DNA of 44,789 bases from a phage, in sequence record PZ379181.1; one strand, 5' to 3'. Numbering within the stretch: the first letter of the stretch is position 1; the number at the start of each line of letters is the position of its first letter. Under the pieces are notes generated by a model. That model did not search any database, had not been told where the DNA came from, and saw only the letters and a list, made by a program, of their open reading frames with translations. Below are positions 1,015 through 43,949 of the stretch, piece after piece. A program made the translations under genes and the position numbers.

Positions 1015-1029
1015 TAGCAATTAGTGCTA
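1015..1029 (-). promoter_or_regulatory. TAGCA-N5-TGCTA operator/promoter module (upstream of erf)
   Basis: TAGCAattagTGCTA; contains the exonuclease stop TAG; TATGAT and AAACGAAAGAGAG leader follow on minus strand. Confidence 0.5.
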
Positions 1030-2510: not shown

Positions 2511-2590
2511 ATACATAGTAATATATATAATAATAATAATAAGAGTAAAAGGTTGATATATATATATATTTTAATGTAACCAATGCGTAA
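2511..2590. repeat. AT-rich block with (ATA)n tract, copy A
   Basis: About 85 percent identical to 30296-30373, same orientation; both lie in divergent intergenic regions. Confidence 0.8.
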
Positions 2591-2666
2591 ATTGGCGTAA
2601 CATTGCGTATATCATTTTTCGCGGATGAGATTGCATACATCGAGTTACATCGGTTACGCGTAAACA

Positions 2667-2681
2667 TAGCACTAATTGCTA
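2667..2681 (+). promoter_or_regulatory. TAGCA-N5-TGCTA operator/promoter module (upstream of methyltransferase gene)
   Basis: TAGCActaatTGCTA followed by TATAGT-like -10 and ACAAACAACGAGAGAG leader. Confidence 0.5.
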
Positions 2682-2740: not shown

Positions 2741-3430
2741 ATGGTTATCTGGTCTTTATTTGATGGTTCTGGTCTGGCGGTAAAGGATTGGGCTGAAGCT
2801 GGCCACACTTGCTACTGTTTCAACTTTGATGAGTCTGACCACGGCAGCTACAGTGACTTAAATGCAAAGGTTGAGCATGAGAACATCACATACGTTAACG
2901 CATGGATAGATGCTGACTTCGATTTTGATGTGAAACCTGATTTTATAATGGCGTTCCCTCCATGCACTGACTTAGCCGTGAGCGGATCAAGACACTTTGA
3001 ACGCAAGTGTATAGCTAACCCTAACTTCCAAATTGAAGCTGCGGAGACGTGCAAGATTGCTTTTAATCTTGCTGAAAAATACGGAGTACCATACATGATC
3101 GAGAACCCAATCAGCGTACTGTCATCACTTTGGCGAAAACCTGATAACACCTTCCACCCATATGAATACGGAGGCTATTTGCCGGAAGATGATTTACACC
3201 CGTTTTTTAGCGACCTAATAAAGCCAAAAGACGCATATCCCAAGAAGACATGCATTTGGTATGGCAATGGGTTTAAATGGCCAGAGGCAATTCCAGTGGA
3301 CGTTAACGGTGGATTCTCTGACCAATACAAGAAGCTAGGCGGGAAGAGCAATAAGACAAAGGTAATTCGCAGCCTAACTCCTCGCGGTTTTGCAAAAGCC
3401 GTCTTCATTGCAAATAGCACCAATTGCTAA
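2741..3430 (+). CDS. DNA methyltransferase (SAM-dependent; class uncertain)
   Basis: 229 aa; FDGSG (FxGxG SAM motif), then FPPC and ENP in the order seen in C5-MTase motifs I/IV/VI; could equally be a T1 Dam-like enzyme. Confidence 0.5.
   Translation: MVIWSLFDGSGLAVKDWAEAGHTCYCFNFDESDHGSYSDLNAKVEHENITYVNAWIDADFDFDVKPDFIMAFPPCTDLAVSGSRHFERKCIANPNFQIEAAETCKIAFNLAEKYGVPYMIENPISVLSSLWRKPDNTFHPYEYGGYLPEDDLHPFFSDLIKPKDAYPKKTCIWYGNGFKWPEAIPVDVNGGFSDQYKKLGGKSNKTKVIRSLTPRGFAKAVFIANSTNC
3415..3429 (+). promoter_or_regulatory. TAGCA-N5-TGCTA operator/promoter module (upstream of lipoprotein gene)
   Basis: TAGCAccaatTGCTA; its TAA is the stop codon of the methyltransferase ORF. Confidence 0.5.
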
Positions 3431-14637: not shown

Positions 14638-14698
14638 TTCACTAATATCTCATTTCGTTTCGATGAATGAACTATACAGCAATCCGCGATTTGGTCTT

Positions 14699-14713
14699 TA
14701 ACAAAAAGTGCTA
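14699..14713 (-). promoter_or_regulatory. Operator/promoter module (degenerate half TAACA) upstream of 82-aa gene
   Basis: TAACAaaaagTGCTA with downstream TATAGTT...CATCGAAACGA leader. Confidence 0.45.
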
Positions 14714-23112: not shown

Positions 23113-23127
23113 TAGCAAAACGTGCTA
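23113..23127 (-). promoter_or_regulatory. TAGCA-N5-TGCTA operator/promoter module (upstream of 117-aa gene)
   Basis: TAGCAaaacgTGCTA; its TAG is the terminase large-subunit stop codon. Confidence 0.5.
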
Positions 23128-26852: not shown

Positions 26853-26993
26853 TTAGCAATTCGTGCTATCCATTTTATCTTCACGCTCTTTCCATAGATT
26901 CATTAGCTCGAAGTACATCATGGCAACCTCGCCAGTCTTAGCCTCATCCATCATCCGTTTAGCCCACTGGCTTGGTGTTTCGTAGTTATCCAT
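26853..26993 (-). CDS. hypothetical small protein (46 aa)
   Basis: Hand-translated; stop codon lies inside operator module. Confidence 0.3.
   Translation of the reverse strand: MDNYETPSQWAKRMMDEAKTGEVAMMYFELMNLWKEREDKMDSTNC
26854..26868 (-). promoter_or_regulatory. TAGCA-N5-TGCTA operator/promoter module
   Basis: TAGCAattcgTGCTA with hairpin, TATAATTA and CCCATCAAACAACGAAGAGAG leader before ATG 26793. Confidence 0.5.
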
Positions 26994-28198: not shown

Positions 28199-28213
28199 TA
28201 GCAATTCATGCTA
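28199..28213 (-). promoter_or_regulatory. TAGCA-N5-TGCTA operator/promoter module (exemplar)
   Basis: In gene orientation: ATAGCATGAATTGCTAAAC, hairpin GCCGGAGAAATCCGGC, ATAATTA, CCACATCGACAACGAG, GGAG, ATG 28139. Confidence 0.55.
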
Positions 28214-28880: not shown

Positions 28881-28895
28881 TAGCAATTCGTGCTA
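28881..28895 (-). promoter_or_regulatory. TAGCA-N5-TGCTA operator/promoter module
   Basis: TAGCAattcgTGCTA; downstream GATATAGT -10-like and AAAGAGGATGTG leader. Confidence 0.5.
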
Positions 28896-30295: not shown

Positions 30296-30373
30296 ATACA
30301 TACATATATATAATAATAATAATAATATAGTAAAAGGTTGATATATATAGATATTATTATGTAACCATTGCGT
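30296..30373. repeat. AT-rich block with (ATA)n tract, copy B
   Basis: About 85 percent identical to 2511-2590. Confidence 0.8.
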
Positions 30374-30521
30374 AATCTAGCGTGGTAGGCGTGTATGATT
30401 CTTCGGAAGCGCACCTCATATACACACCATAACTTCGATAACGTGTATATCCAAATTGGCTCAGCAAGAATCAAAATCAACTTGTATGGTAGTCCATCCA
30501 CCATTCATTCACCCCACATCG

Positions 30522-30637: not shown

Positions 30638-30652
30638 TAGCACTTTTTGCTA
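30638..30652 (+). promoter_or_regulatory. TAGCA-N5-TGCTA operator/promoter module (plus-strand operon)
   Basis: TAGCActtttTGCTA followed by TATGTATTCATCGAAACGG. Confidence 0.5.
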
Positions 30653-31637: not shown

Positions 31638-31801
31638 TGCTTTTACCATCTGATATAAACTATTTCGATCTGGAAATAATTAGTGCTTACAGCGGAAAGG
31701 GTTGGCCTTGCGGGGACTGGTTTAACGAGGACCTGCTTGAGTCTCACGAGATTATGTTGAAGGCAATTGAGAAGGCCAGAAAAAATAGCACTAATTGCTA
31801 A
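31637..31801 (+). CDS. hypothetical small protein (54 aa)
   Basis: Hand-translated; TAATG overlap upstream; stop TAA inside operator motif. Confidence 0.3.
   Translation: MLLPSDINYFDLEIISAYSGKGWPCGDWFNEDLLESHEIMLKAIEKARKNSTNC
31786..31800 (+). promoter_or_regulatory. TAGCA-N5-TGCTA operator/promoter module
   Basis: TAGCActaatTGCTA followed by GTATATTTACTCCATCGAAACGAAAGAGAG and ATG 31861. Confidence 0.5.
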
Positions 31802-31860
31802 AACTCACCGCCACGGATGGCGTATATTTACTCCATCGAAACGAAAGAGAGCAAGAGATC

Positions 31861-32411: not shown

Positions 32412-32578
32412 AATTATACATTGTAAGTGGTTGCACACACTATGATGGAAGCGAAGTGATTGCCGCTTTCGATGAAGAATTCAAAGCACAGGAGTTTAAA
32501 TATAACAAAGAAATATCTTCAGAAAATCACTTTGACTACTACAAGATAGATTGCATCTTACTAAATAGCACTAATTGA
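32408..32578 (+). CDS. hypothetical small protein (56 aa)
   Basis: ATGA overlap upstream; stop inside operator motif. Confidence 0.3.
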   Translation: MKLYIVSGCTHYDGSEVIAAFDEEFKAQEFKYNKEISSENHFDYYKIDCILLNSTN

Positions 32579-32580
32579 TA
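32566..32580 (+). promoter_or_regulatory. Operator/promoter module (degenerate right half TGATA)
   Basis: TAGCActaatTGATA, then TATAAT at +23 and GCGGAGAGAAG before ATG 32639. Confidence 0.45.
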
Positions 32581-32638
32581 ATGCATTATAAGCGGCTATT
32601 GATATAATGGCCGCTCAGAAACAATGCGGAGAGAAGTA

Positions 32639-36014: not shown

Positions 36015-36568
36015 TTAGCAATTCGTGCTATTTATTACGTGCATTACCAAAGCAGAGGTTCCATCAATATCACCATCTACAACATGAACGTCAATTTCTC
36101 TTGCGCAGACACCGCGAATGTAGGAGCGGCTATCTCCATCAAAAGTATAGCCAGGCCTAAAAAGTCTAATCAAAGTAACTTCAACCCCTGAATCAATGAG
36201 AGTATTAATCTCGCTAGCGAAGCCACCATCAGCACAGATATAGCAACCATCACCAAGTGATTGCGCTAGCCTTTTACCGAAAACATCATCACCAAAGACT
36301 GGCTTCATAACTGACTCACTAATCCAAATCATAAATTCACGAACCGTCATTCCACCAAGAAATTCATGTGGTGATTCTTTGTACTCTCGGTCATCGTAAT
36401 TCTTAATAAATTCATCAAACTCATCGCTTGATAGTATTCCTTTTGCAACATTAAACATTGGTGACTTGAATGAAACCTTATCCTTGCAAATTCCAAGATT
36501 AACAATGATATCTGCAACTGTATCTTTTCCAGCACCAGGGGTGCATTAAGGATGATTAACTTTTTCAT
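36015..36568 (-). CDS. dNMP kinase-like P-loop kinase, frameshifted
   Basis: N-terminus MKKLIILNAP; P-loop PGAGKDT and the rest of the protein are in the -1 frame after a 4-nt run (plus-strand GGGG 36538-36541); resembles T4 gp1 dNMP kinase. Confidence 0.55.
36016..36030 (-). promoter_or_regulatory. TAGCA-N5-TGCTA operator/promoter module
   Basis: TAGCAattcgTGCTA; contains the kinase stop codon; hairpin GCCGGAGTAATCCGGC and CATAAT at +23. Confidence 0.55.
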
Positions 36569-37101: not shown

Positions 37102-37116
37102 TAACAAAAAATGCTA
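37102..37116 (-). promoter_or_regulatory. Operator/promoter module (TAACA variant)
   Basis: TAACAaaaaaTGCTA; hairpin GCCTCAAAGGATTGAGGC; RBS GAGGAG before ATG 37043. Confidence 0.45.
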
Positions 37117-38250
37117 TTACTTAAACATTTCAGGTCGGCAAGTGAATCGACCAACTTCACCGTACTCTGAGCTATAGATAATTACTGAGGCCTGACGATA
37201 AGAGCGATACCCTCCGTTTGCGCTGTACGCATCTTTAGCACCCAACTGACCGTGTGACTCATCAATTCCAAGATTACCCTCAGTAACCGTCTGATGATGA
37301 TAATGGCCACTATGTGTATAAACGTATTCAGCATTACCAAATGCTTTGCGATGGTCGCGCGCAAGAGTTGAAAGACGAGTGTCAGGCTTTCGCAATTCAT
37401 GACCATGGCAGTAACCCAACAATGTTTTACCAAACTCCGTCACGTGAAGAGCGGCTGGTGAGGCATCAACATTTACACGAGGCTCATCCATGTAGAAGGC
37501 AGCCATTGCAGCTCGAAGCCAAATCATCCCAGAAAGGTCGTGGTTGCCTGGTATAATCTGAACCTCAACCTCTTTATGCTTGTCAAGCATCTTACTGACG
37601 GCGCGGCGAGTTGCACGAACAGCTACGTAGACAAGTTTATGATAACGGCTATCTTGATCAAGTACGTGCTTGCTGGTTGGAGTTACAGCTTCCATTCCAT
37701 CCGAGTGAAGGAAGTCTCCACCAATCAGTAATACGGCTTTTGATGAATTCGGGGCCTTAGCAACTGCATAATCAAAGTATTGGTTAAGCACTCGCTCTGC
37801 AATTTCTGTACTGTAGTTCTCCCCACACTCTGCATGGTGAGCCATTGCGCCAATATGCATATCAAACACGGGGTAGAGGCTCAAGGTGTCCTCATAGCTT
37901 GATTCACTGAGTGGTTTCGGAGTCTCTCGAGGGAGCTCATCTGTAAGCGCCTGAACAATCTGCTGAAGCATCTCTTCTTGTTTCTGTTCGTCGATGGAAG
38001 TTTTAACCCAGCGAAGCTTCTCATTACCATCCGCATCAATCATTGTTGAAGTGCCTTTAACAAGATAGCCATCAGGAACTAGCTTCTTGATGCCTTCATT
38101 ACCATGCCCAACCCCACTCTTAGCCAACTTGCTACGACGAAGCTCAACGTTTCGAATGTTCATTCCGTACTTCTCTGCAATCGCCTTGTTAGTCAGGCCG
38201 TTTTTCAGTTCTTCGATCAACTGCTCGGTGGTAATTTTTGCTGCTGCCAT
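37117..38250 (-). CDS. Metallophosphoesterase with N-terminal HTH domain
   Basis: 377 aa; DMH, GDFLHSDG, GNHD, GHEL, HSGHYHH motifs (calcineurin-like); N-terminal TNKAIAEKYGMNIRNVELRR is HTH-like. Confidence 0.65.
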   Translation of the reverse strand: MAAAKITTEQLIEELKNGLTNKAIAEKYGMNIRNVELRRSKLAKSGVGHGNEGIKKLVPDGYLVKGTSTMIDADGNEKLRWVKTSIDEQKQEEMLQQIVQALTDELPRETPKPLSESSYEDTLSLYPVFDMHIGAMAHHAECGENYSTEIAERVLNQYFDYAVAKAPNSSKAVLLIGGDFLHSDGMEAVTPTSKHVLDQDSRYHKLVYVAVRATRRAVSKMLDKHKEVEVQIIPGNHDLSGMIWLRAAMAAFYMDEPRVNVDASPAALHVTEFGKTLLGYCHGHELRKPDTRLSTLARDHRKAFGNAEYVYTHSGHYHHQTVTEGNLGIDESHGQLGAKDAYSANGGYRSYRQASVIIYSSEYGEVGRFTCRPEMFK

Positions 38251-38331: not shown

Positions 38332-38583
38332 TCATTCAACCTCTTTCAACCAAAAGTCCAACAAAGTAGCACAAATTGCTAATTTCTTGTCCAGGTCAGT
38401 CATGCACAGGTTTCCACATGATGGTGAATAATAAATCTGTACCCACTTGCCATCTTTAGTCTTCGCATTAACATCTACGTAGTCAGGAGGAAACCAGTCA
38501 GAAATAGGGATTGCTCTAAACTTATTCCCACTACTACCATGTACTAAGTCATAATGCCCAGGCTGAAAATCTAATCCCAACAT
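38332..38583 (-). CDS. hypothetical protein (83 aa)
   Basis: ATG start. Confidence 0.4.
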   Translation of the reverse strand: MLGLDFQPGHYDLVHGSSGNKFRAIPISDWFPPDYVDVNAKTKDGKWVQIYYSPSCGNLCMTDLDKKLAICATLLDFWLKEVE

Positions 38584-39371: not shown

Positions 39372-39437
39372 TTTCTTTCTCTCTTTGTGTGTTTCGTTTC
39401 GATGAGTTGATAATACACCAACTCACCAATTCGTCTT

Positions 39438-39452
39438 TAGCAATTCGTGCTA
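39438..39452 (-). promoter_or_regulatory. TAGCA-N5-TGCTA operator/promoter module
   Basis: TAGCAattcgTGCTA; contains the VRR-NUC gene stop codon. Confidence 0.5.
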
Positions 39453-39870: not shown

Positions 39871-41865
39871 TCAATCCTCCATCGTAAATGATTTGTTGGC
39901 GATAATATCTTGCGACTTCTGATTCTTGCGGTGCGTAATCCTTAGCGGCGCACGGAAAAGATGTGCATTTGTCATAATCATTTTAGCATTACGCAATCTG
40001 CCAATCCTAAAAGCCTCAGTCCTGTTCTCGATGTGAGTTGAGCAAAACGCCTTCCATTTGACAGAACAAACACGATGGTCTGACTCCGGGAAGAATGTTT
40101 CATAAGCTCGGAACTTATCTCCACTATGAGCCATTACCTCATATGAAGCAACGATCCCTGACTGGTTCTTTGTTAACCCAATCTTGAAGTCATAAACTCG
40201 CAACCAGTCCCCCTTACGATACATTTTTCCTGATAACTTAGCATTCGGGTCTATGAGCATCTCACCACAGCATCTGCAATTCTTAGCTGCAATATCATTC
40301 TTCTCACCGCATCCTTTCTTAATGATAGCTTTGGTCTGTGGGTCCGCTATATCTTCACACAGTCTAAACTGAAAGAAGTGCTCACAGCGCTTCCAGTCAA
40401 TTACGTTATTGCAGCGCCTGGCTAATTGAGAGTTCACATAAGAGCATGCCGGACAGATTCTTGGCTTATCACCACGCTTTCTTGCTGACCTAAATTTCTG
40501 GTCTTGTACCTCTTCTATAATTGGGTCGAAGTAAAGTTCAGCCATATCATCAAGCGTTCCAGCAAAATCAAGAACAACATGGTCATCTTTTACCATTCCA
40601 GCTTCTTTGTGCTTCTTCTTAAGGATACGCATACCACGACCAAGCAACTGAATGAGTAGAGTAATGCTACCAACCTTCCTCAGGATAATGCTTGTATCCC
40701 ACGGGGGGCAGTTTACGCCAGTTGTGAGGCAACCAATCTGAAATATGAACTTATATTCTCCGTTGGCTGCCTTCTCAAGTATCTCTCTACGCTTCTTCTC
40801 ACCAGTGGAGTTGGTAACTATCGCCCAAGTAACACCTTCTGGAAGTGCGGCTGCCGCCTCCTCGCAATGCTGTTTGCCAGCGCAAGTTACCAATGCAGCA
40901 TTCCTTGTTTCCATAAACTTAGCAGCAAATCCCATTATCTTTTGTGTCATCGTTTGGTTTTCGTGAATCTTTGCAGCCATCGCATCCATTTCTTTCTTGC
41001 TGAAGTCCTTAACCCCATCACTTCCATCAGGAGTGAACTCACTAAGGTCGTAGCCCAAATCACCAACTTCACCGTAGACAGTAGGAACAACGAACCCCAA
41101 GTCAACAAGGTAGCTGGTTGGCACTTGCATTACAGTTTTGCGCCAGAATCCACGGACATTTGGGTTACTAACTACAATGTGGTCGTTGTTACGGTACGGG
41201 CTGCCAGTCAAACCGAAGATGCGTAGTTCGCGACCATACTTCTCTTTGCAGCGTCTCTTCATCTCAGTAATGATTAGCGTGTACTGCGCACGACCAGTTC
41301 CGAGCAATCCGGTATTCACTCCATCCTTGAAAACCATCTCACCCTTCTTCGTGCTCATCTGCTCGAATGTTTCCTCGTTCTCTTCAGCTTCTACGATATC
41401 CATATGGTCAACCATATGACATTCATCTATCGCAATAACGGCAGGAACATAGTCACCAAGGCCCTTAAACAAGCCGTTAGCAGCCGTGCCCTCACTAGCC
41501 ACTATGGTTGGGTAGTAAACTGATTTAACGTTAAGGCCAGCGCAATAGACGCTATTACGGATGCCGAAGTTACGAAGCTCTTCAGCGTTCTGGCTGATAA
41601 TTTCTGACTGGCGAGAAAGCACCATGTAAGGAAGCCCAAGCTGTTCCATGCGCTTTCCAATCATGGCAAGAATAATTGTCTTACCAGCAGATACAGACAG
41701 GTCTGCGATGAATGGGGCCTCGTACTTTCCAATAGCCTTCCCAATTGCATCAAATGTCACACACTGGAATGGGTAAGGAGTGATTTCTCCAAACTGGTAA
41801 TCTCTCTGAATCTGCTTAATCTTCTCTTGATCGAAGTTGGCTACTAAGCGCTCTACTGGAAGCAT
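39871..41865 (-). CDS. Superfamily 2 ATP-dependent DNA helicase
   Basis: 664 aa; Walker A SAGKT, DECH box (AIDECHMV); Cys-rich C-terminal region. Confidence 0.8.
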   Translation of the reverse strand: MLPVERLVANFDQEKIKQIQRDYQFGEITPYPFQCVTFDAIGKAIGKYEAPFIADLSVSAGKTIILAMIGKRMEQLGLPYMVLSRQSEIISQNAEELRNFGIRNSVYCAGLNVKSVYYPTIVASEGTAANGLFKGLGDYVPAVIAIDECHMVDHMDIVEAEENEETFEQMSTKKGEMVFKDGVNTGLLGTGRAQYTLIITEMKRRCKEKYGRELRIFGLTGSPYRNNDHIVVSNPNVRGFWRKTVMQVPTSYLVDLGFVVPTVYGEVGDLGYDLSEFTPDGSDGVKDFSKKEMDAMAAKIHENQTMTQKIMGFAAKFMETRNAALVTCAGKQHCEEAAAALPEGVTWAIVTNSTGEKKRREILEKAANGEYKFIFQIGCLTTGVNCPPWDTSIILRKVGSITLLIQLLGRGMRILKKKHKEAGMVKDDHVVLDFAGTLDDMAELYFDPIIEEVQDQKFRSARKRGDKPRICPACSYVNSQLARRCNNVIDWKRCEHFFQFRLCEDIADPQTKAIIKKGCGEKNDIAAKNCRCCGEMLIDPNAKLSGKMYRKGDWLRVYDFKIGLTKNQSGIVASYEVMAHSGDKFRAYETFFPESDHRVCSVKWKAFCSTHIENRTEAFRIGRLRNAKMIMTNAHLFRAPLRITHRKNQKSQDIIANKSFTMED

Positions 41866-41933
41866 TTTAAATATCCCGACATTTTGTTAGTTCGTTGCAT
41901 TGCTGTATAATAACAACTATCGACCCTATTGTT

Positions 41934-41948
41934 TAACAAAAAATGCTA
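41934..41948 (-). promoter_or_regulatory. Operator/promoter module (TAACA variant) between divergent helicase and HTH genes
   Basis: TAACAaaaaaTGCTA, 14 nt upstream of the HTH gene ATG and upstream of helicase gene. Confidence 0.45.
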
Positions 41949-41961
41949 TTGAGGTAATGAG

Positions 41962-42435
41962 ATGTGTGAAATTGACAAGCGAACTATCAACGGCAATAAC
42001 GGAACCATCCGCACGCAAGACAAGAAACAGCGCAAACGACCGTCAGGCTACTACGTATTGAAAGATGAAGTAAAGGCTGGGCTAAGAGCTCGTCTGGAGA
42101 TGGTTCTTGACTTCTACGGCACGAAGGCCAATATCGCCAAGCAGTTAAATGTATCTCACCAGACTGTAGAACAATGGTTTGATCGCGGTATGATTTCGGC
42201 TCGAGGCGCCCAGCGAGCACATAATGCGTACAAGAGAAATAAGGGAGGGTTCCGAGCTACTTTCTGCCGACCAGACCTGCAATTTGACGGTAACGGTAAG
42301 CCTCTGACGCTTAGATGCAAGAAGCGCCACATGCTACGCGTGGTTACTGAGGCTGAACTAGCAACAAAGCCACCTTGTCGACCGTGGCGCAAGAATAAGA
42401 TTGCCAACGAAGCCGCACGAAAAGCTAAAGAGTAA
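41962..42435 (+). CDS. HTH DNA-binding protein (Cro/YdaS-like), candidate regulator
   Basis: 157 aa; TKANIAKQLNVSHQTVEQWFDRG helix-turn-helix; basic C-terminus. Confidence 0.55.
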   Translation: MCEIDKRTINGNNGTIRTQDKKQRKRPSGYYVLKDEVKAGLRARLEMVLDFYGTKANIAKQLNVSHQTVEQWFDRGMISARGAQRAHNAYKRNKGGFRATFCRPDLQFDGNGKPLTLRCKKRHMLRVVTEAELATKPPCRPWRKNKIANEAARKAKE

Positions 42436-42486
42436 ATAATTGGATGTGCCATAATCGGTACATCCTTTTTTATTGGAGAGAAGAAA

Positions 42487-42966
42487 ATGAACTGGCATGA
42501 TTATTTTTACTATGTAGATGGCAAATTGCATTGGAAGATTAGCACTGCAAGACGTGTTAAGGTTGGCGATGAGTGCAACTCACTATCTACATCTGGCTAT
42601 TACAAAGTGTCTGTTAATGGCTTTAGGACTTATGTACATAGAGTTGTGTGGGAGATGTTTAATGGAGAACTTCAAAATGGCGACTACATTGATCATATAA
42701 ACCATAACAAATTAGATAACAGAATAGAAAACCTAAGAGTAACAACAAATCAAGGTAACTCAAGAAATTGCAAGCTTAGCGTTTTATCAACAACTGGTTA
42801 TTGTGGAGTGGCAAAGCTAAATCACGGAAAATTTAAGGCTCACATCAAGGTTGACGGCAAGCAGCTACACCTTGGGAACTTCGATACTCCAGAGCGGGCG
42901 TATAAAGTAAGAATTGAAGCAGAGGGAAAATACAACTTTCACGAAAATCACGGGTTAAGCAAATGA
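42487..42966 (+). CDS. HNH homing endonuclease with AP2-type domain
   Basis: YVHRVVW...IDHINHNKLDNRIENLR; GGAGAG RBS; ATGA overlap with primase start. Confidence 0.8.
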   Translation: MNWHDYFYYVDGKLHWKISTARRVKVGDECNSLSTSGYYKVSVNGFRTYVHRVVWEMFNGELQNGDYIDHINHNKLDNRIENLRVTTNQGNSRNCKLSVLSTTGYCGVAKLNHGKFKAHIKVDGKQLHLGNFDTPERAYKVRIEAEGKYNFHENHGLSK

Positions 42967-43886
42967 ATTACGATAAGAATGAAGTTATACCTAAGATGGC
43001 CGGATTGTGGAAATCATTTTATGCAAAGGAACTTGGTTGGAATGATAGACACCTAAGTAAGAAGCACGGACCATGCCCATACTGCTTTGGCACTGACAGA
43101 TTCAGATTTACCGACGAAATAGGCAGTGAAAAAGGAAATGGCGCGGCAGTTTGTTCGAAATGCGGAAGTGACTCCGGTATAGGATGGGTCATGAAGTGCA
43201 CTGGATTGTCCTTCGCTGATTCAGTAAATTTGCTTGGTGACTGGCTGAACTTAATACCAATTGAGGTTATAGTTAAAGCAAACAAGCAAGCATCAAGAAC
43301 GCAGCGTTATAAAATTTGCGCTCAAGTAGACCACAAGAAAGTTCTTGAGGTCATGGAGAGGACTCAGCGAGTTGAATCTAGTCCACTCACGACATACGAG
43401 GGTATTTATGACGAGTTTGGTTTTGATGTTGGTATAGCTAAAAATTGTTCAATGATTCACGCAATCCCTTGTTCGATGGTTTATGAAGATGGGCTTAGTG
43501 ATGAGTTCTGTAACGTAATGTTTATTGATGAGGATTCAAATGTTAAGTTCCTTGCTGGTGATTACACTCGTGATTCTGTTTCCGTTATTGGTTCTAAGCT
43601 GGATGATAGTTATACTTATGTTGTTGACAATTATATTGATGGCATACGTGTTCACCTTGCTACTGGTGGGCGCGAAGTGTTTGTTGCTTTCTCCTGTTAC
43701 AATATGGAGATGGTTATCCACCGCGACAAGTCAAGGAAGTTCAGAATTGCTTGCCGTGATTCTGATAGCGATATACTCGCTGTTGCTGACGATAGGGGTG
43801 TTGATGTTGTAGTTCCTAATGACGGTGAGTCATTTAAAACAGGCATACGAAAGAAAGTGTACAAAGCAAACGACTTGCTAAACTAA
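42963..43886 (+). CDS. DNA primase (zinc-ribbon type)
   Basis: 307 aa; CPYCFGTDRFRF...CSKCG zinc-binding motif near N-terminus; next to helicase region. Confidence 0.6.
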   Translation: MNYDKNEVIPKMAGLWKSFYAKELGWNDRHLSKKHGPCPYCFGTDRFRFTDEIGSEKGNGAAVCSKCGSDSGIGWVMKCTGLSFADSVNLLGDWLNLIPIEVIVKANKQASRTQRYKICAQVDHKKVLEVMERTQRVESSPLTTYEGIYDEFGFDVGIAKNCSMIHAIPCSMVYEDGLSDEFCNVMFIDEDSNVKFLAGDYTRDSVSVIGSKLDDSYTYVVDNYIDGIRVHLATGGREVFVAFSCYNMEMVIHRDKSRKFRIACRDSDSDILAVADDRGVDVVVPNDGESFKTGIRKKVYKANDLLN

Positions 43887-43908
43887 CCTCCTTCGGGAGG
43901 TTTTTTAT
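43887..43908 (+). terminator. Rho-independent terminator after primase gene
   Basis: CCTCCTTCGGGAGG hairpin followed by T6. Confidence 0.75.
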
Positions 43909-43934: not shown

Positions 43935-43949
43935 TGGCAATTAGTGCTA
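43935..43949 (+). promoter_or_regulatory. Operator-like palindrome upstream of tail fibre gene
   Basis: TGGCAattagTGCTA, 22 nt before ATG 43972. Confidence 0.4.

What the first reader, a model, noticed from the sequence alone, without database searches (positions are those of the whole stretch)
41934..42435. Cro-like HTH gene is the best candidate regulator of the operator regulon
The 157-aa protein has a classic helix-turn-helix (TKANIAKQLNVSHQTVEQWF) and a basic tail. Its gene starts 14 nt after an operator copy that also serves the divergent helicase promoter, an arrangement typical of autoregulated phage regulators.
Basis: inference. Interest (0 to 1): 0.5.

Follow-up and report, generated by a model that had tools for sequence, protein, structure and literature searches.

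The report
Phage T1 Pir-type regulator gene
This gene is the counterpart of Pir, the known transcription regulator of phage T1. It is the best (still unproven) candidate for the factor acting at a 21-base repeat that T1-like phages carry in front of most genes; that repeat looks like an activator site, not a repressor operator.

Summary
The ORF is real: 41962-42435, + strand, 157 aa. Position 41934 is the start of the adjacent repeat copy, not of the gene. The window is an almost complete T1-like (Drexlerviridae) coliphage.

The protein is the sequence and positional ortholog of T1 Orf23/Pir. Pir was shown experimentally to activate Pdam and Phol and to repress its own promoter. An AlphaFold model (pLDDT 88.5) has an all-alpha Cro-type HTH core.

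The "operator" is the directional 21-bp repeat aaATAGCACnnnTTGnTAAAA, already described in T1, TLS and Stevie, with its function listed as an open question. In 14 of 18 window copies it ends 21-23 nt (mostly 22) upstream of a TAnnnT -10 box. That puts its centre near -42 of promoters that lack a -35 box, the position of a class II activator site.

The copy next to pir serves the helicase promoter. That promoter's -10 overlaps the -10 of pir's own sigma-70 promoter on the other strand, and the repeat lies at about +16 to +30 of the pir transcript. This would give autorepression.

Caveats:
- Pir's recognition helix is hypervariable while the repeat is invariant from coliphages to a vibriophage.
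- T1 Porf65 has a perfect repeat but did not respond to Pir.

Verdict: partly supported. The gene is known; the link between regulator and repeat is new and testable.

The parts
41962..42435 (+). pir-type regulator gene (157 aa): disordered conserved N-terminal arm (aa 1-25), Cro-type HTH core (helices 35-52, 55-62, 66-75, 80-93), small C-terminal module, non-conserved basic tail
   Evidence: 54% identity to T1 ST23; PHROG 2856, E 1.6e-81
41884..41911 (+). pir's own sigma-70 type promoter, TTGTTA-N16-TATAAT (10/12). It has no upstream repeat. Predicted start is about 41918.
   Evidence: An equivalent TTGnnn-N16/17-TAnnAT is conserved in T1, Sushi, Stevie, Vc1 and EC3a.
41934..41948 (-). Repeat copy, read on the minus strand as TAGCATTTTTTGTTA. 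Centre is about -42 of the helicase promoter. On the plus strand it lies at about +16 to +30 of the pir leader, 13 nt before the ATG.
   Evidence: It is the only block conserved in the intergenic region of 6 phages, and it sits at the same place in L007 and L129.
41907..41912 (-). -10 box (TATTAT) of the helicase promoter. It overlaps the pir -10 (41906-41911) on the other strand by 5 of 6 bp.
41951..41954 (+). Shine-Dalgarno GAGG of pir
42442..42473 (+). Intrinsic terminator after pir (9-bp stem, then TTTTTTATT). HNH (42487-42966) and primase (42963-43886) follow with no promoter of their own visible.
   Evidence: Terminators are annotated at the same place in T1, EC3a, Sushi and Stevie.
39871..41865 (-). 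Helicase gene (664 aa) driven by the repeat-type promoter that diverges from pir
1015..1029 (-). Repeat-type promoter (22 nt to TATGAT), upstream of the erf gene
2667..2681 (+). Repeat-type promoter (21 nt to TATAGT), upstream of the methylase-like gene at 2741
3415..3429 (+). Repeat-type promoter (22 nt to TATCAT)
14699..14713 (-). Repeat-type promoter (22 nt to TATAGT), tail gene block
23113..23127 (-). Repeat-type promoter (23 nt to TATAGT), head gene block
26854..26868 (-). Repeat-type promoter (22 nt to TATAAT), small ORF block
28199..28213 (-). Repeat-type promoter (22 nt to CATAAT)
28881..28895 (-). Repeat-type promoter (22 nt to TATAGT)
30638..30652 (+). Repeat-type promoter (23 nt to TACTAT)
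31786..31800 (+). Repeat-type promoter (22 nt to TATATT)
32566..32580 (+). Repeat-type promoter (22 nt to TATAAT), upstream of the 532-aa gene at 32624
36016..36030 (-). Repeat-type promoter (22 nt to CATAAT), upstream of the lysis cassette
37102..37116 (-). Weaker repeat-type promoter (22 nt to CAAAAT), upstream of the pnk-like gene
39438..39452 (-). Repeat-type promoter (22 nt to TATTAT)
43935..43949 (.). Repeat copy in reverse orientation, 22 nt before the tail-fibre ATG (43972) and just after the primase terminator. It has no -10 box in either direction, so it may be a true operator or roadblock.
   Evidence: Same arrangement in T1 (34903) and EC3a (32079).

Best explanation
The gene encodes the Pir-type regulator of a T1-like virulent phage.

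What the sequence shows:
- pir is transcribed early by unmodified host RNA polymerase from its own sigma-70 promoter (41884-41911). It forms a short unit closed by a terminator, with read-through towards HNH and primase.
- The repeated element ATAGCAC-N3-TTG(C/T)TAAA lies at -49 to -35 of at least 14 promoters that have a good -10 box but no -35 box.

What is inferred:
- Pir, probably as a dimer, works through this element as a class II-type activator, in the way lambda cI at OR2 activates PRM. This turns on the replication, recombination, lysis and structural units.
- At its own locus, the one repeat copy that activates the helicase promoter lies at +16 to +30 of the pir transcript, and the two divergent promoters use overlapping -10 boxes. 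Occupancy by Pir plus polymerase in the helicase direction would therefore shut off pir. This is negative autoregulation by promoter competition and roadblock.

What was shown elsewhere: in T1, Pir activates Pdam, a repeat-type promoter, and represses its own promoter. Direct binding of Pir to the repeat has not been shown anywhere.
For: 1. Orthology to T1 Pir. There is 54% identity over 134 aa. Synteny between primase and divergent helicase is the same in T1, EC3a, Sushi, Stevie, Vc1, L007, L008 and L129. It matches PHROG 2856, 'transcriptional regulator', E 1.6e-81.
2. T1 experiments (PMC6737242). Pir alone in E. coli activates Pdam and represses Ppir. In T1, Pdam carries the repeat 22 nt upstream of CATTAT, and Ppir has the repeat 13 nt from the ATG.
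3. Promoter architecture. 14 of 18 window copies have a TAnnnT-type box 21-23 nt downstream in one orientation, against 12% of random positions. The figures are 15/21 in T1, 13/13 in Sushi, 18/20 in EC3a and 5/7 in Vc1. The consensus of the 51 sites across six genomes that have the spacing of exactly 22 nt is aaATAGCAC.aaTTGcTAAA-N-TATaaT-tacc.cAtcgAaac. A start codon follows about 35 nt later.
4. Intergenic alignment of 6 phages. The repeat is the only conserved block, the -10 boxes overlap, and pir has its own -35/-10.
5. Few other canonical sigma-70 promoters exist in the window. Only three were found in TLS (PMC11447400).
6. Fold: Cro/cI-type HTH.
7. Phyletic match. Pir is in 825 phage records. 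The repeat is present in every Pir-encoding genome I examined.
8. Rival candidates do not match. Orf65 is in 67 records only and is absent here. The HTH-phosphoesterase also occurs in Dhillonvirus mckay, which has 0 repeat copies and no Pir.
9. No other HTH was found among 36 further window ORFs scanned.
10. The pir leader RNA is unstructured (MFE -1.2 kcal/mol, z +2.1), so the copy acts as DNA, not as an RNA hairpin.
Against: 1. The positions of helix 3 expected to touch bases (aa 65-67, 70, 71, by alignment to P22 c2/Cro) are hypervariable across the family: VSHQTVEQ, VSNQTVQG, VTPKTVFG, VCCVRLTN, FKRHRVAR. Yet the repeat is identical in coliphages, Klebsiella and Citrobacter phages, a vibriophage and distant metagenomic relatives.
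2. The best conserved part of Pir is a disordered N-terminal arm (DKRxINGNNGTxRGxD). One relative (P0118, L129) lacks it and still has the repeat.
3. In T1, Porf65 has a perfect repeat at the standard position, yet it was reported independent of Pir and activated by Orf65.
4. In T1, Pir also changed two promoter fragments that carry no full repeat, PrecE and Phol.
5. Repeat-type reporters had measurable activity in uninfected cells. Host polymerase can therefore use them to some degree.
6. The element is directional and only partly symmetric, which is not what a simple homodimer site looks like.
Confidence: 0.5

Rival explanations
1. The repeat is read by conserved host machinery: RNA polymerase holoenzyme itself, or a DNA-binding protein conserved across gamma-proteobacteria. 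It then acts as a surrogate for the missing -35 box, a UP-like or enhancer element. Pir regulates by other means, through lineage-specific operators read by its variable HTH or by binding polymerase through its conserved arm.
For: - The repeat is invariant across phages of Escherichia, Klebsiella, Citrobacter and Vibrio, while the Pir recognition helix is not conserved.
- T1 Porf65 (perfect repeat) is active and independent of Pir, and reporters work in uninfected cells.
- Nearly all presumed early small-ORF units also use repeat promoters. That is simplest if host polymerase can start them unaided.
- The TLS authors suggested a UP-like role.
- Pir changes T1 promoters that have no repeat.
Against: - From my own knowledge, I can match no E. 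coli factor or sigma specificity to ATAGCAC-N3-TTGCTA.
- The TTGCTA half lies 22 nt from the -10 box, 5 bp too far for sigma region 4.
- The sequence is not A/T-rich like a UP element.
- Reverse-oriented copies in the leaders of pir and of the tail-fibre gene make no sense as promoter elements.
- Pdam, a repeat-type promoter, does respond to Pir alone.
Confidence: 0.25
2. Another phage protein binds the repeat. Candidates are an uncharacterised small early protein, or the sigma-region-4/LuxR-like HTH at the N-terminus of the 376-aa metallophosphatase (37117-38250). Pir would be a separate local regulator.
For: - The phosphatase HTH is well conserved from coliphages to the vibriophage.
- In Sushi it passes the Pfam threshold for Sigma70_r4_2: 27.8 bits against 25.7.
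- Many small ORFs have no recognisable domain.
- In T1, Orf65 behaves like a repeat binder. It activates its own repeat-type promoter and represses Ppir.
Against: - The phosphatase with the same HTH is full length in Dhillonvirus mckay, which has no repeat copy (0 found, 0.86 expected) and no Pir.
- Its gene is itself behind a repeat-type promoter.
- Orf65 is confined to 67 Tunavirus-like records, has no homologue in this window and has no known domain.
- Pir alone suffices to activate T1 Pdam.
Confidence: 0.15
3. The repeat copies are repressor operators or 'stoperators', as in mycobacteriophage L5. The HTH protein would silence the whole set.
For: - The copies are directional, intergenic and oriented with transcription, which is the resemblance noted in the Stevie and TLS papers.
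- Pir represses its own promoter and PrecE in T1.
- Reverse copies lie in two leaders.
Against: - The copies lie upstream of the -10 boxes at one fixed distance, not inside transcribed regions at varied positions.
- These promoters lack -35 boxes and so need help, not silencing.
- Pir activates Pdam.
- The phage family is essentially virulent. No cI-type partner or integrase is annotated in T1, EC3a, Sushi or Stevie.
Confidence: 0.07

Closest known systems
Phage T1 Orf23 / Pir ('prophage induction regulator', Laganenka et al. 2019, PMC6737242)
   Same: Ortholog: 54% identity, the same place between primase and divergent helicase, the same repeat copy 13 nt before the start codon, and the same terminator after the gene.
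   Different: The C-terminus differs: T1 lacks the basic tail. An HNH gene is inserted before primase here. The window phage lacks Orf65, the second T1 regulator that represses pir. Pir's DNA site was never defined in the paper (no mention of a binding site).
Intergenic 21/22-bp direct repeats of T1-like phages (T1, Stevie PMC4319613, TLS PMC11447400)
   Same: This is the same element: consensus aaATAGCACnnnTTGnTAAAA, oriented with transcription, about 76 nt before start codons.
   Different: The papers leave the function open (stoperator, enhancer site or UP element). Here a fixed 22-nt distance to a -10 box, the absence of a -35 box and a conserved leader are documented.
Lambda cI at OR2/PRM and other class II activators (CRP, FNR at -41.5)
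   Different: There is no lysogeny switch, no cooperative operator triplet and no cI C-terminal domain. The site is directional. Contact with sigma region 4 is untested.
All-alpha Cro proteins (P22 Cro, N15 Cro, Xfaso1 Cro; Pfam PF14549)
   Different: The score is below the Pfam threshold. Pir is 157 aa, with an extra conserved N-terminal arm and a C-terminal FCRPDLxFDxNGK module. It is not paired with a repressor gene and acts mainly as an activator.
T4 MotA/AsiA middle promoters and Mu Mor/C late activators
   Same: A virulent or lytic programme in which an early phage protein redirects host sigma-70 polymerase to promoters with a good -10 box and a phage-specific box in place of -35.
   Different: The MotA box is centred at -30 and needs the co-factor AsiA. 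Mor and C bind dyads centred at about -43.5 but belong to another family. No sequence or fold relation to Pir was found.
Mycobacteriophage L5 gp71 stoperators
   Same: Many asymmetric copies of one short site, oriented with transcription.
   Different: Stoperators lie within transcription units of a temperate phage and block elongation. Here the copies are at a fixed promoter position in a virulent phage.

Membership tests
T1 Pir (Orf23) orthologous group / PHROG 2856 | Full-length sequence similarity to T1 ST23 | tested here: met
   tblastn 54% identity over 134 aa, E 4e-42; global alignment; PHROG 2856 E 1.6e-81 over aa 1-157
T1 Pir (Orf23) orthologous group / PHROG 2856 | Conserved gene neighbourhood: divergent from the helicase gene, upstream of primase, own terminator | tested here: met
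T1 Pir (Orf23) orthologous group / PHROG 2856 | Acts as a transcription regulator (activates Pdam/Phol, represses its own promoter) | not testable with these tools
   Shown only for T1 Pir in reporter assays (PMC6737242)
Cro/cI-type (XRE) helix-turn-helix proteins; Pfam P22_Cro PF14549 | Score above the curated Pfam threshold | tested here: not met
   P22_Cro 23.2 bits against 30.2; YdaS_toxin 20.4 against 30; Phage_CI_repr 16.3 against 22
Cro/cI-type (XRE) helix-turn-helix proteins; Pfam P22_Cro PF14549 | Five-helix all-alpha HTH fold | tested here: met
Cro/cI-type (XRE) helix-turn-helix proteins; Pfam P22_Cro PF14549 | Recognition helix conserved together with its operator among orthologues | tested here: not met
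   Helix 3 is hypervariable while the repeat is invariant
Cro of a lysis-lysogeny switch | Paired with a divergent cI-type repressor gene and shared tripartite operators | tested here: not met
   The divergent gene is a helicase. No repressor or integrase is annotated in the related records.
Class II activator-dependent promoters (functional class) | Activator site centred near -41.5, overlapping a weak or absent -35 box, with a good -10 box | tested here: met
   Repeat end to -10 distance is 22 nt in most of about 65 sites, which puts the centre at about -42. The sequence at the -35 position is AAAAC or AAGAC. Transcript starts are inferred, not mapped.
Class II activator-dependent promoters (functional class) | Activator protein bound at the site and contacting RNA polymerase | not testable with these tools
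   No binding or interaction data exist for Pir
L5-type stoperators | Sites inside transcribed regions at varied positions, bound by the prophage repressor to stop elongation | tested here: not met
   The sites are at a fixed distance upstream of -10 boxes. No prophage repressor is annotated in the related records.

The most novel reading that the evidence does not exclude
Pir is not a conventional operator-reading HTH repressor or activator. It is a polymerase-directed factor of a new kind. Its invariant, disordered N-terminal arm (DKRxINGNNGTxRGxD) and FCRPDLxFD module dock on conserved host RNA polymerase, at sigma region 4 or the flap. This re-spaces promoter recognition so that the TTGCTA half of the repeat, 5 bp further upstream than a normal -35 box, together with ATAGCAC, is read by the complex. 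It would be a one-protein analogue of T4 AsiA/MotA sigma appropriation. That would also explain why canonical -35/-10 promoters (Ppir, PrecE) go down when Pir is made.
Probability: 0.12. Interest if true: 0.8.

Novelty: new member of a known kind. Interest (0 to 1): 0.45.

Why it matters
T1-like phages (Drexlerviridae) are among the most common coliphages and Klebsiella phages, and they are frequent laboratory contaminants. How they programme host RNA polymerase is still unknown. The 2024 TLS paper lists the function of the 21-base intergenic repeat among four open questions for the family.

Three things together make this a concrete, cheap experiment:
- the repeat sits at a fixed class II activator position of promoters without a -35 box;
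- the only family-wide HTH regulator (Pir) sits at the one locus where a repeat copy can both activate a divergent promoter and shut off the regulator's own promoter;
- published T1 reporter data partly fit this picture.

The experiment is EMSA or footprinting, in vitro transcription, and 5'-end mapping. The mismatch between an invariant site and a hypervariable recognition helix is a real puzzle. It could point to an unusual mode of promoter recognition.

For annotation, it gives a usable promoter model for more than 800 sequenced phages, whose promoters are currently predicted with generic sigma-70 tools.

Tried and rejected
1. Covariation between the Pir recognition helix and the repeat across distant lineages (T1, Sushi, Stevie, Vc1, L007, L129). 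The repeat never changes, so covariation cannot be scored. The result became a caveat instead.
2. A search for an alternative Pir site shared by the four Pir-responsive T1 promoter fragments and absent from Porf65. No significant shared word was found.
3. Sigma-54 reading of TAGCAC-N3-TTGC. Rejected: the spacing is N3, not N5; the sequence is AG, not GG; and a -10 box lies 22 nt downstream (sequence inspection, own knowledge).
4. TTGCTA as an ordinary -35 box. Rejected: there is no -10-like hexamer 16-18 nt downstream, and the conserved box is at 22 nt.
5. An RNA hairpin formed by the palindrome in the pir leader. Rejected: MFE -1.2 kcal/mol, less stable than shuffled sequences.
6. A zinc site in the C-terminal part. 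Rejected: of the cysteines, only C119 is invariant (in the 24-sequence alignment) and C102 nearly so, and T1 has Leu at the position of C102.
7. T1 Orf65 as the general repeat binder. Rejected on distribution.
8. The HTH-phosphoesterase as binder. Made unlikely by Dhillonvirus mckay.
9. A scan of IMG/VR for the repeat.
10. A literature search for mapped transcription starts in Drexlerviridae, or for a defined Pir site. Neither was found.

Full report
**What the window is.** The region 41500-43000 matches T1-like coliphages at 88-92% identity (phiA2-1, TR1, IME542, CEB_EC3a). The gene order (VRR-NUC, helicase, regulator, HNH, primase, tail fibre) is that of the Drexlerviridae. The 44.8-kb window is essentially one phage genome.

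**Check of the observation.**
- The ORF runs 41962..42435 on the + strand, starts with ATG, encodes 157 aa, and contains the quoted HTH string.
- The finding's start, 41934, is the first base of the neighbouring repeat copy TAACAAAAAATGCTA (41934-41948). This copy is a one-mismatch variant of TAGCA-N5-TGCTA.
- The gap to the ATG is 13 nt and holds the SD GAGG.
- The palindrome is highly over-represented: 12 exact copies against 0.11 expected, and 18 with at most one mismatch against 2.25 expected.
- All Pfam hits to the HTH are below threshold: P22_Cro 23.2 bits against 30.2, plus YdaS and CI.
- An AlphaFold2 model built on 85 homologues is confident (pLDDT 88.5). It shows a helical core at aa 31-93 and a disordered first 25 residues.
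- 'Cro-like HTH' is therefore right at the fold level. The basic tail is real but not conserved; T1 lacks it.

**Identity of the gene.**
- The protein is the ortholog of T1 ST23/Orf23, with 54% identity (alignment).
- It lies at the same place, between primase and a divergently transcribed helicase, followed by a terminator. This holds in T1, CEB_EC3a, Klebsiella phage Sushi, Citrobacter phage Stevie, Vibrio phage Vc1 and three metagenomic relatives.
- It matches PHROG 2856, 'transcriptional regulator', at E 1.6e-81.
- T1 Orf23 was named Pir by Laganenka et al. 2019 (PMC6737242). Expressed alone in E. coli, it activated the hol and dam promoter fusions and repressed its own promoter and that of recE. 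A second T1 protein, Orf65, repressed pir and activated its own promoter, which Pir did not affect.
- No binding site is defined in that paper. I found no later work that defines one.
- The family is small: 825 phage records, and only 11 cluster representatives at E < 1e-30 among 1.8 billion proteins.

**Identity of the 'operator'.** The palindrome is the symmetric core of a longer, directional element that is already in the literature.
- The Stevie genome announcement reports 16 copies of VWATAGCAYKWWTTGYTAAAAV and about 20 in T1, and states that their role is unknown (PMC4319613). The Stevie record annotates them as repeat regions.
- The 2024 TLS paper reports 18 intergenic copies of aaATAGCACnnnTTGnTAAAA, oriented with transcription and about 76 nt before start codons. 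It proposes stoperators, enhancer sites or UP elements, and lists the function as an open question (PMC11447400).
- I find the same element in every Pir-encoding genome examined: T1 (21 copies with at most one mismatch), CEB_EC3a (20), Sushi (13), Stevie (20), a 20-kb piece of Vc1 (7), and the distant contigs L007 and L129.

**What the element looks like functionally.**
- When each copy is read in the orientation TAGCAC...TTGCTA, a TAnnnT hexamer of good quality lies 21-23 nt (overwhelmingly 22) downstream.
- This holds for 14 of 18 window copies, against 12% of random positions. It also holds for 15/21 copies in T1, 13/13 in Sushi, 18/20 in EC3a and 5/7 in Vc1.
- The consensus of the 51 sites across six genomes that have the spacing of exactly 22 nt is aaATAGCAC.aaTTGcTAAA, a non-conserved spacer, TATaaT, then a conserved leader tacc.cAtcgAaac.aaa. 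An SD and a start codon follow about 35 nt after the hexamer. This reproduces the ~76 nt reported for TLS.
- If the hexamer is the -10 box, the repeat covers about -49 to -35, with its centre near -42. The sequence at the normal -35 position (AAAAC, AAGAC) does not resemble TTGACA.
- The TTGCTA half is 5 bp too far upstream to serve as a -35 box.
- This is the geometry of class II activator-dependent promoters, not of repressor operators. The transcript starts are inferred, not mapped; I found no 5'-end data for this family.
- Canonical sigma-70 promoters are rare in the window, as in TLS.

**The pir locus.**
- pir has its own sigma-70 promoter, TTGTTA-N16-TATAAT (41884-41911), and an intrinsic terminator (42442-42473).
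- In an alignment of the helicase-pir intergenic region from six phages, the repeat with its TTT flank is the only conserved block. It lies 11-13 nt before the pir start codon.
- Each phage keeps a TTGnnn-N16/17-TAnnAT promoter for pir. The -10 box of that promoter overlaps, on the opposite strand, the -10 box that lies 21-22 nt from the repeat in the helicase direction. In the window these are 41906-41911 and 41907-41912.
- The single repeat copy is thus at about -42 of the helicase promoter and at about +16 to +30 of the pir transcript, and the two promoters cannot be occupied together.
- A factor that recruits polymerase through the repeat would therefore switch transcription from pir to helicase. 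This matches the negative autoregulation measured for T1 Pir.
- The leader RNA has no structure, so the copy acts as DNA.

**Is Pir the factor? Evidence for.**
- Pir alone activates T1 Pdam, which has the repeat 22 nt before CATTAT. Pir represses Ppir, which has the repeat in its leader.
- Pir is made from one of the few promoters that need no repeat.
- It is the only recognisable HTH protein whose distribution matches the repeat.
- T1 Orf65 occurs in only 67 records, has no known domain and has no homologue in this window.
- The other conserved HTH is a sigma-region-4/LuxR-like motif at the N-terminus of the 376-aa metallophosphatase (37117-38250). It passes the Pfam threshold in Sushi and is well conserved.
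- That phosphatase also occurs, full length and with the same HTH, in Dhillonvirus mckay. That phage has no repeat copy (0 found, 0.86 expected) and no Pir.
- Pfam scans of 36 further window ORFs found no other HTH.

**Is Pir the factor? Evidence against.**
- The positions of helix 3 that should touch bases vary freely across the family, while the repeat is invariant from coliphages to a vibriophage. The conserved residues lie elsewhere: the disordered N-terminal arm DKRxINGNNGTxRGxD, helix 1, W72/R75/G76/I78/S79, and FCRPDLxFDxNGK.
- One relative (P0118) lacks the NGNNG arm and still has the repeat at the same place.
- T1 Porf65 carries a perfect repeat at the standard distance but was Pir-independent.
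- Pir also altered two T1 fragments without a full repeat, PrecE and Phol.
- The reporters were active in uninfected cells.

These points keep open two alternatives: that host machinery reads the repeat, or that Pir acts partly through RNA polymerase. I put direct action of Pir through the repeat at about 0.5.

**Comparison with known systems.**
- As a gene, this is a new member of the known Pir group.
- As a fold, it is a Cro/cI-type HTH. It fails the Pfam threshold, has two extra conserved modules, and is not part of a Cro/cI switch.
- As a mechanism, the closest analogues are lambda cI at PRM and other class II activators. At the level of phage strategy, the closest are T4 MotA/AsiA and Mu Mor/C.
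- The L5 stoperator analogy raised in the literature fits the orientation bias but not the fixed position upstream of -10 boxes.

**Verdict.** The gene is indeed the best candidate regulator, and it is already known as Pir in T1. The 'operators' are better read as activator sites, the site is a known repeat of unknown function, and direct binding remains unproven with a real structural caveat. The link between Pir and the repeat is new as far as I could find. It makes an explicitly posed open question directly testable.

Noticed in passing
window 43935-43949 (also L002 34903-34917, L001 32079-32093): A repeat copy in reverse orientation lies 22 nt before the tail-fibre start codon (43972) and directly after the primase terminator (43885-43902). 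It has no -10 box at the standard distance in either direction. The arrangement is conserved in T1 and EC3a. It could be a true operator or roadblock that keeps early read-through out of the late fibre gene.
   Followed up: partly
window 2512-2620 and 30297-30405: An AT-rich segment of about 110 bp is present twice, nearly identical. It contains (ATA)n/(AT)n runs and the sequence GTAACCAaTGCGTAA. Each copy lies in a region from which genes diverge. The equivalent T1 region upstream of recE has about 8 copies of TGTAACA. These may be replication-origin iterons or sites for another DNA-binding protein.
   Followed up: partly
window, the 22-nt spacers after repeat copies at e.g. 28199, 31786, 36016; terminator features in L001-L004: The non-conserved spacer between the repeat and the -10 box often holds a short GC hairpin, such as CCGGAgaaaTCCGG or CGCCAcggaTGGCG. 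In T1, EC3a, Sushi and Stevie records these are annotated as rho-independent terminators. A terminator for the upstream unit and the promoter for the next unit are therefore interleaved, with the T-rich -10 box doubling as the terminator tail.
   Followed up: partly
window, about 5-20 nt after each -10 box of repeat-type promoters (e.g. 14640-14655, 31835-31850, 39375-39392): A leader sequence, (c)CATCGAAACGAAA, is conserved at the predicted transcript starts across window, T1, Sushi, EC3a and Vc1. Its function is unknown. It could be an initial transcribed sequence, a translation enhancer or a second protein site.
   Followed up: no
window 37117-38250 (-): This 376-aa protein joins an N-terminal sigma-region-4/LuxR-like HTH to an Mre11/SbcD-like metallophosphatase. 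It is found in 2046 phage records, including Dhillonvirus and Salmonella phages outside the Drexlerviridae. What its HTH binds is unknown.
   Followed up: partly
window 42487-42966 (+): An HNH_3 homing-endonuclease gene sits between the pir terminator and the primase gene and overlaps the primase start by 4 nt. T1 has no gene at this position. No promoter for HNH or primase is visible, so both probably depend on read-through of the pir terminator.
   Followed up: no
L129 6519-6983 (protein P0118): This natural Pir variant lacks the otherwise nearly invariant DKRxINGNNG arm, but keeps the repeat 11 nt before its start codon and at least four further copies in 7 kb. It is a useful natural control for the role of the arm.
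   Followed up: partly
L002 36445-36530 (T1 pir promoter): Two copies of a GTAA(A)CGTTT(AC) palindrome flank the -10 box of T1 Ppir (output). They are absent from the window's pir promoter. They may be lineage-specific operators, which would fit the variable HTH, or a site for a host LacI-family protein.
   Followed up: no
window 38367-38381: An exact repeat copy (TAGCACAAATTGCTA) lies inside, and antisense to, the minus-strand ORF 38332-38583, with no -10 box downstream. It appears to be an orphan copy.
   Followed up: no
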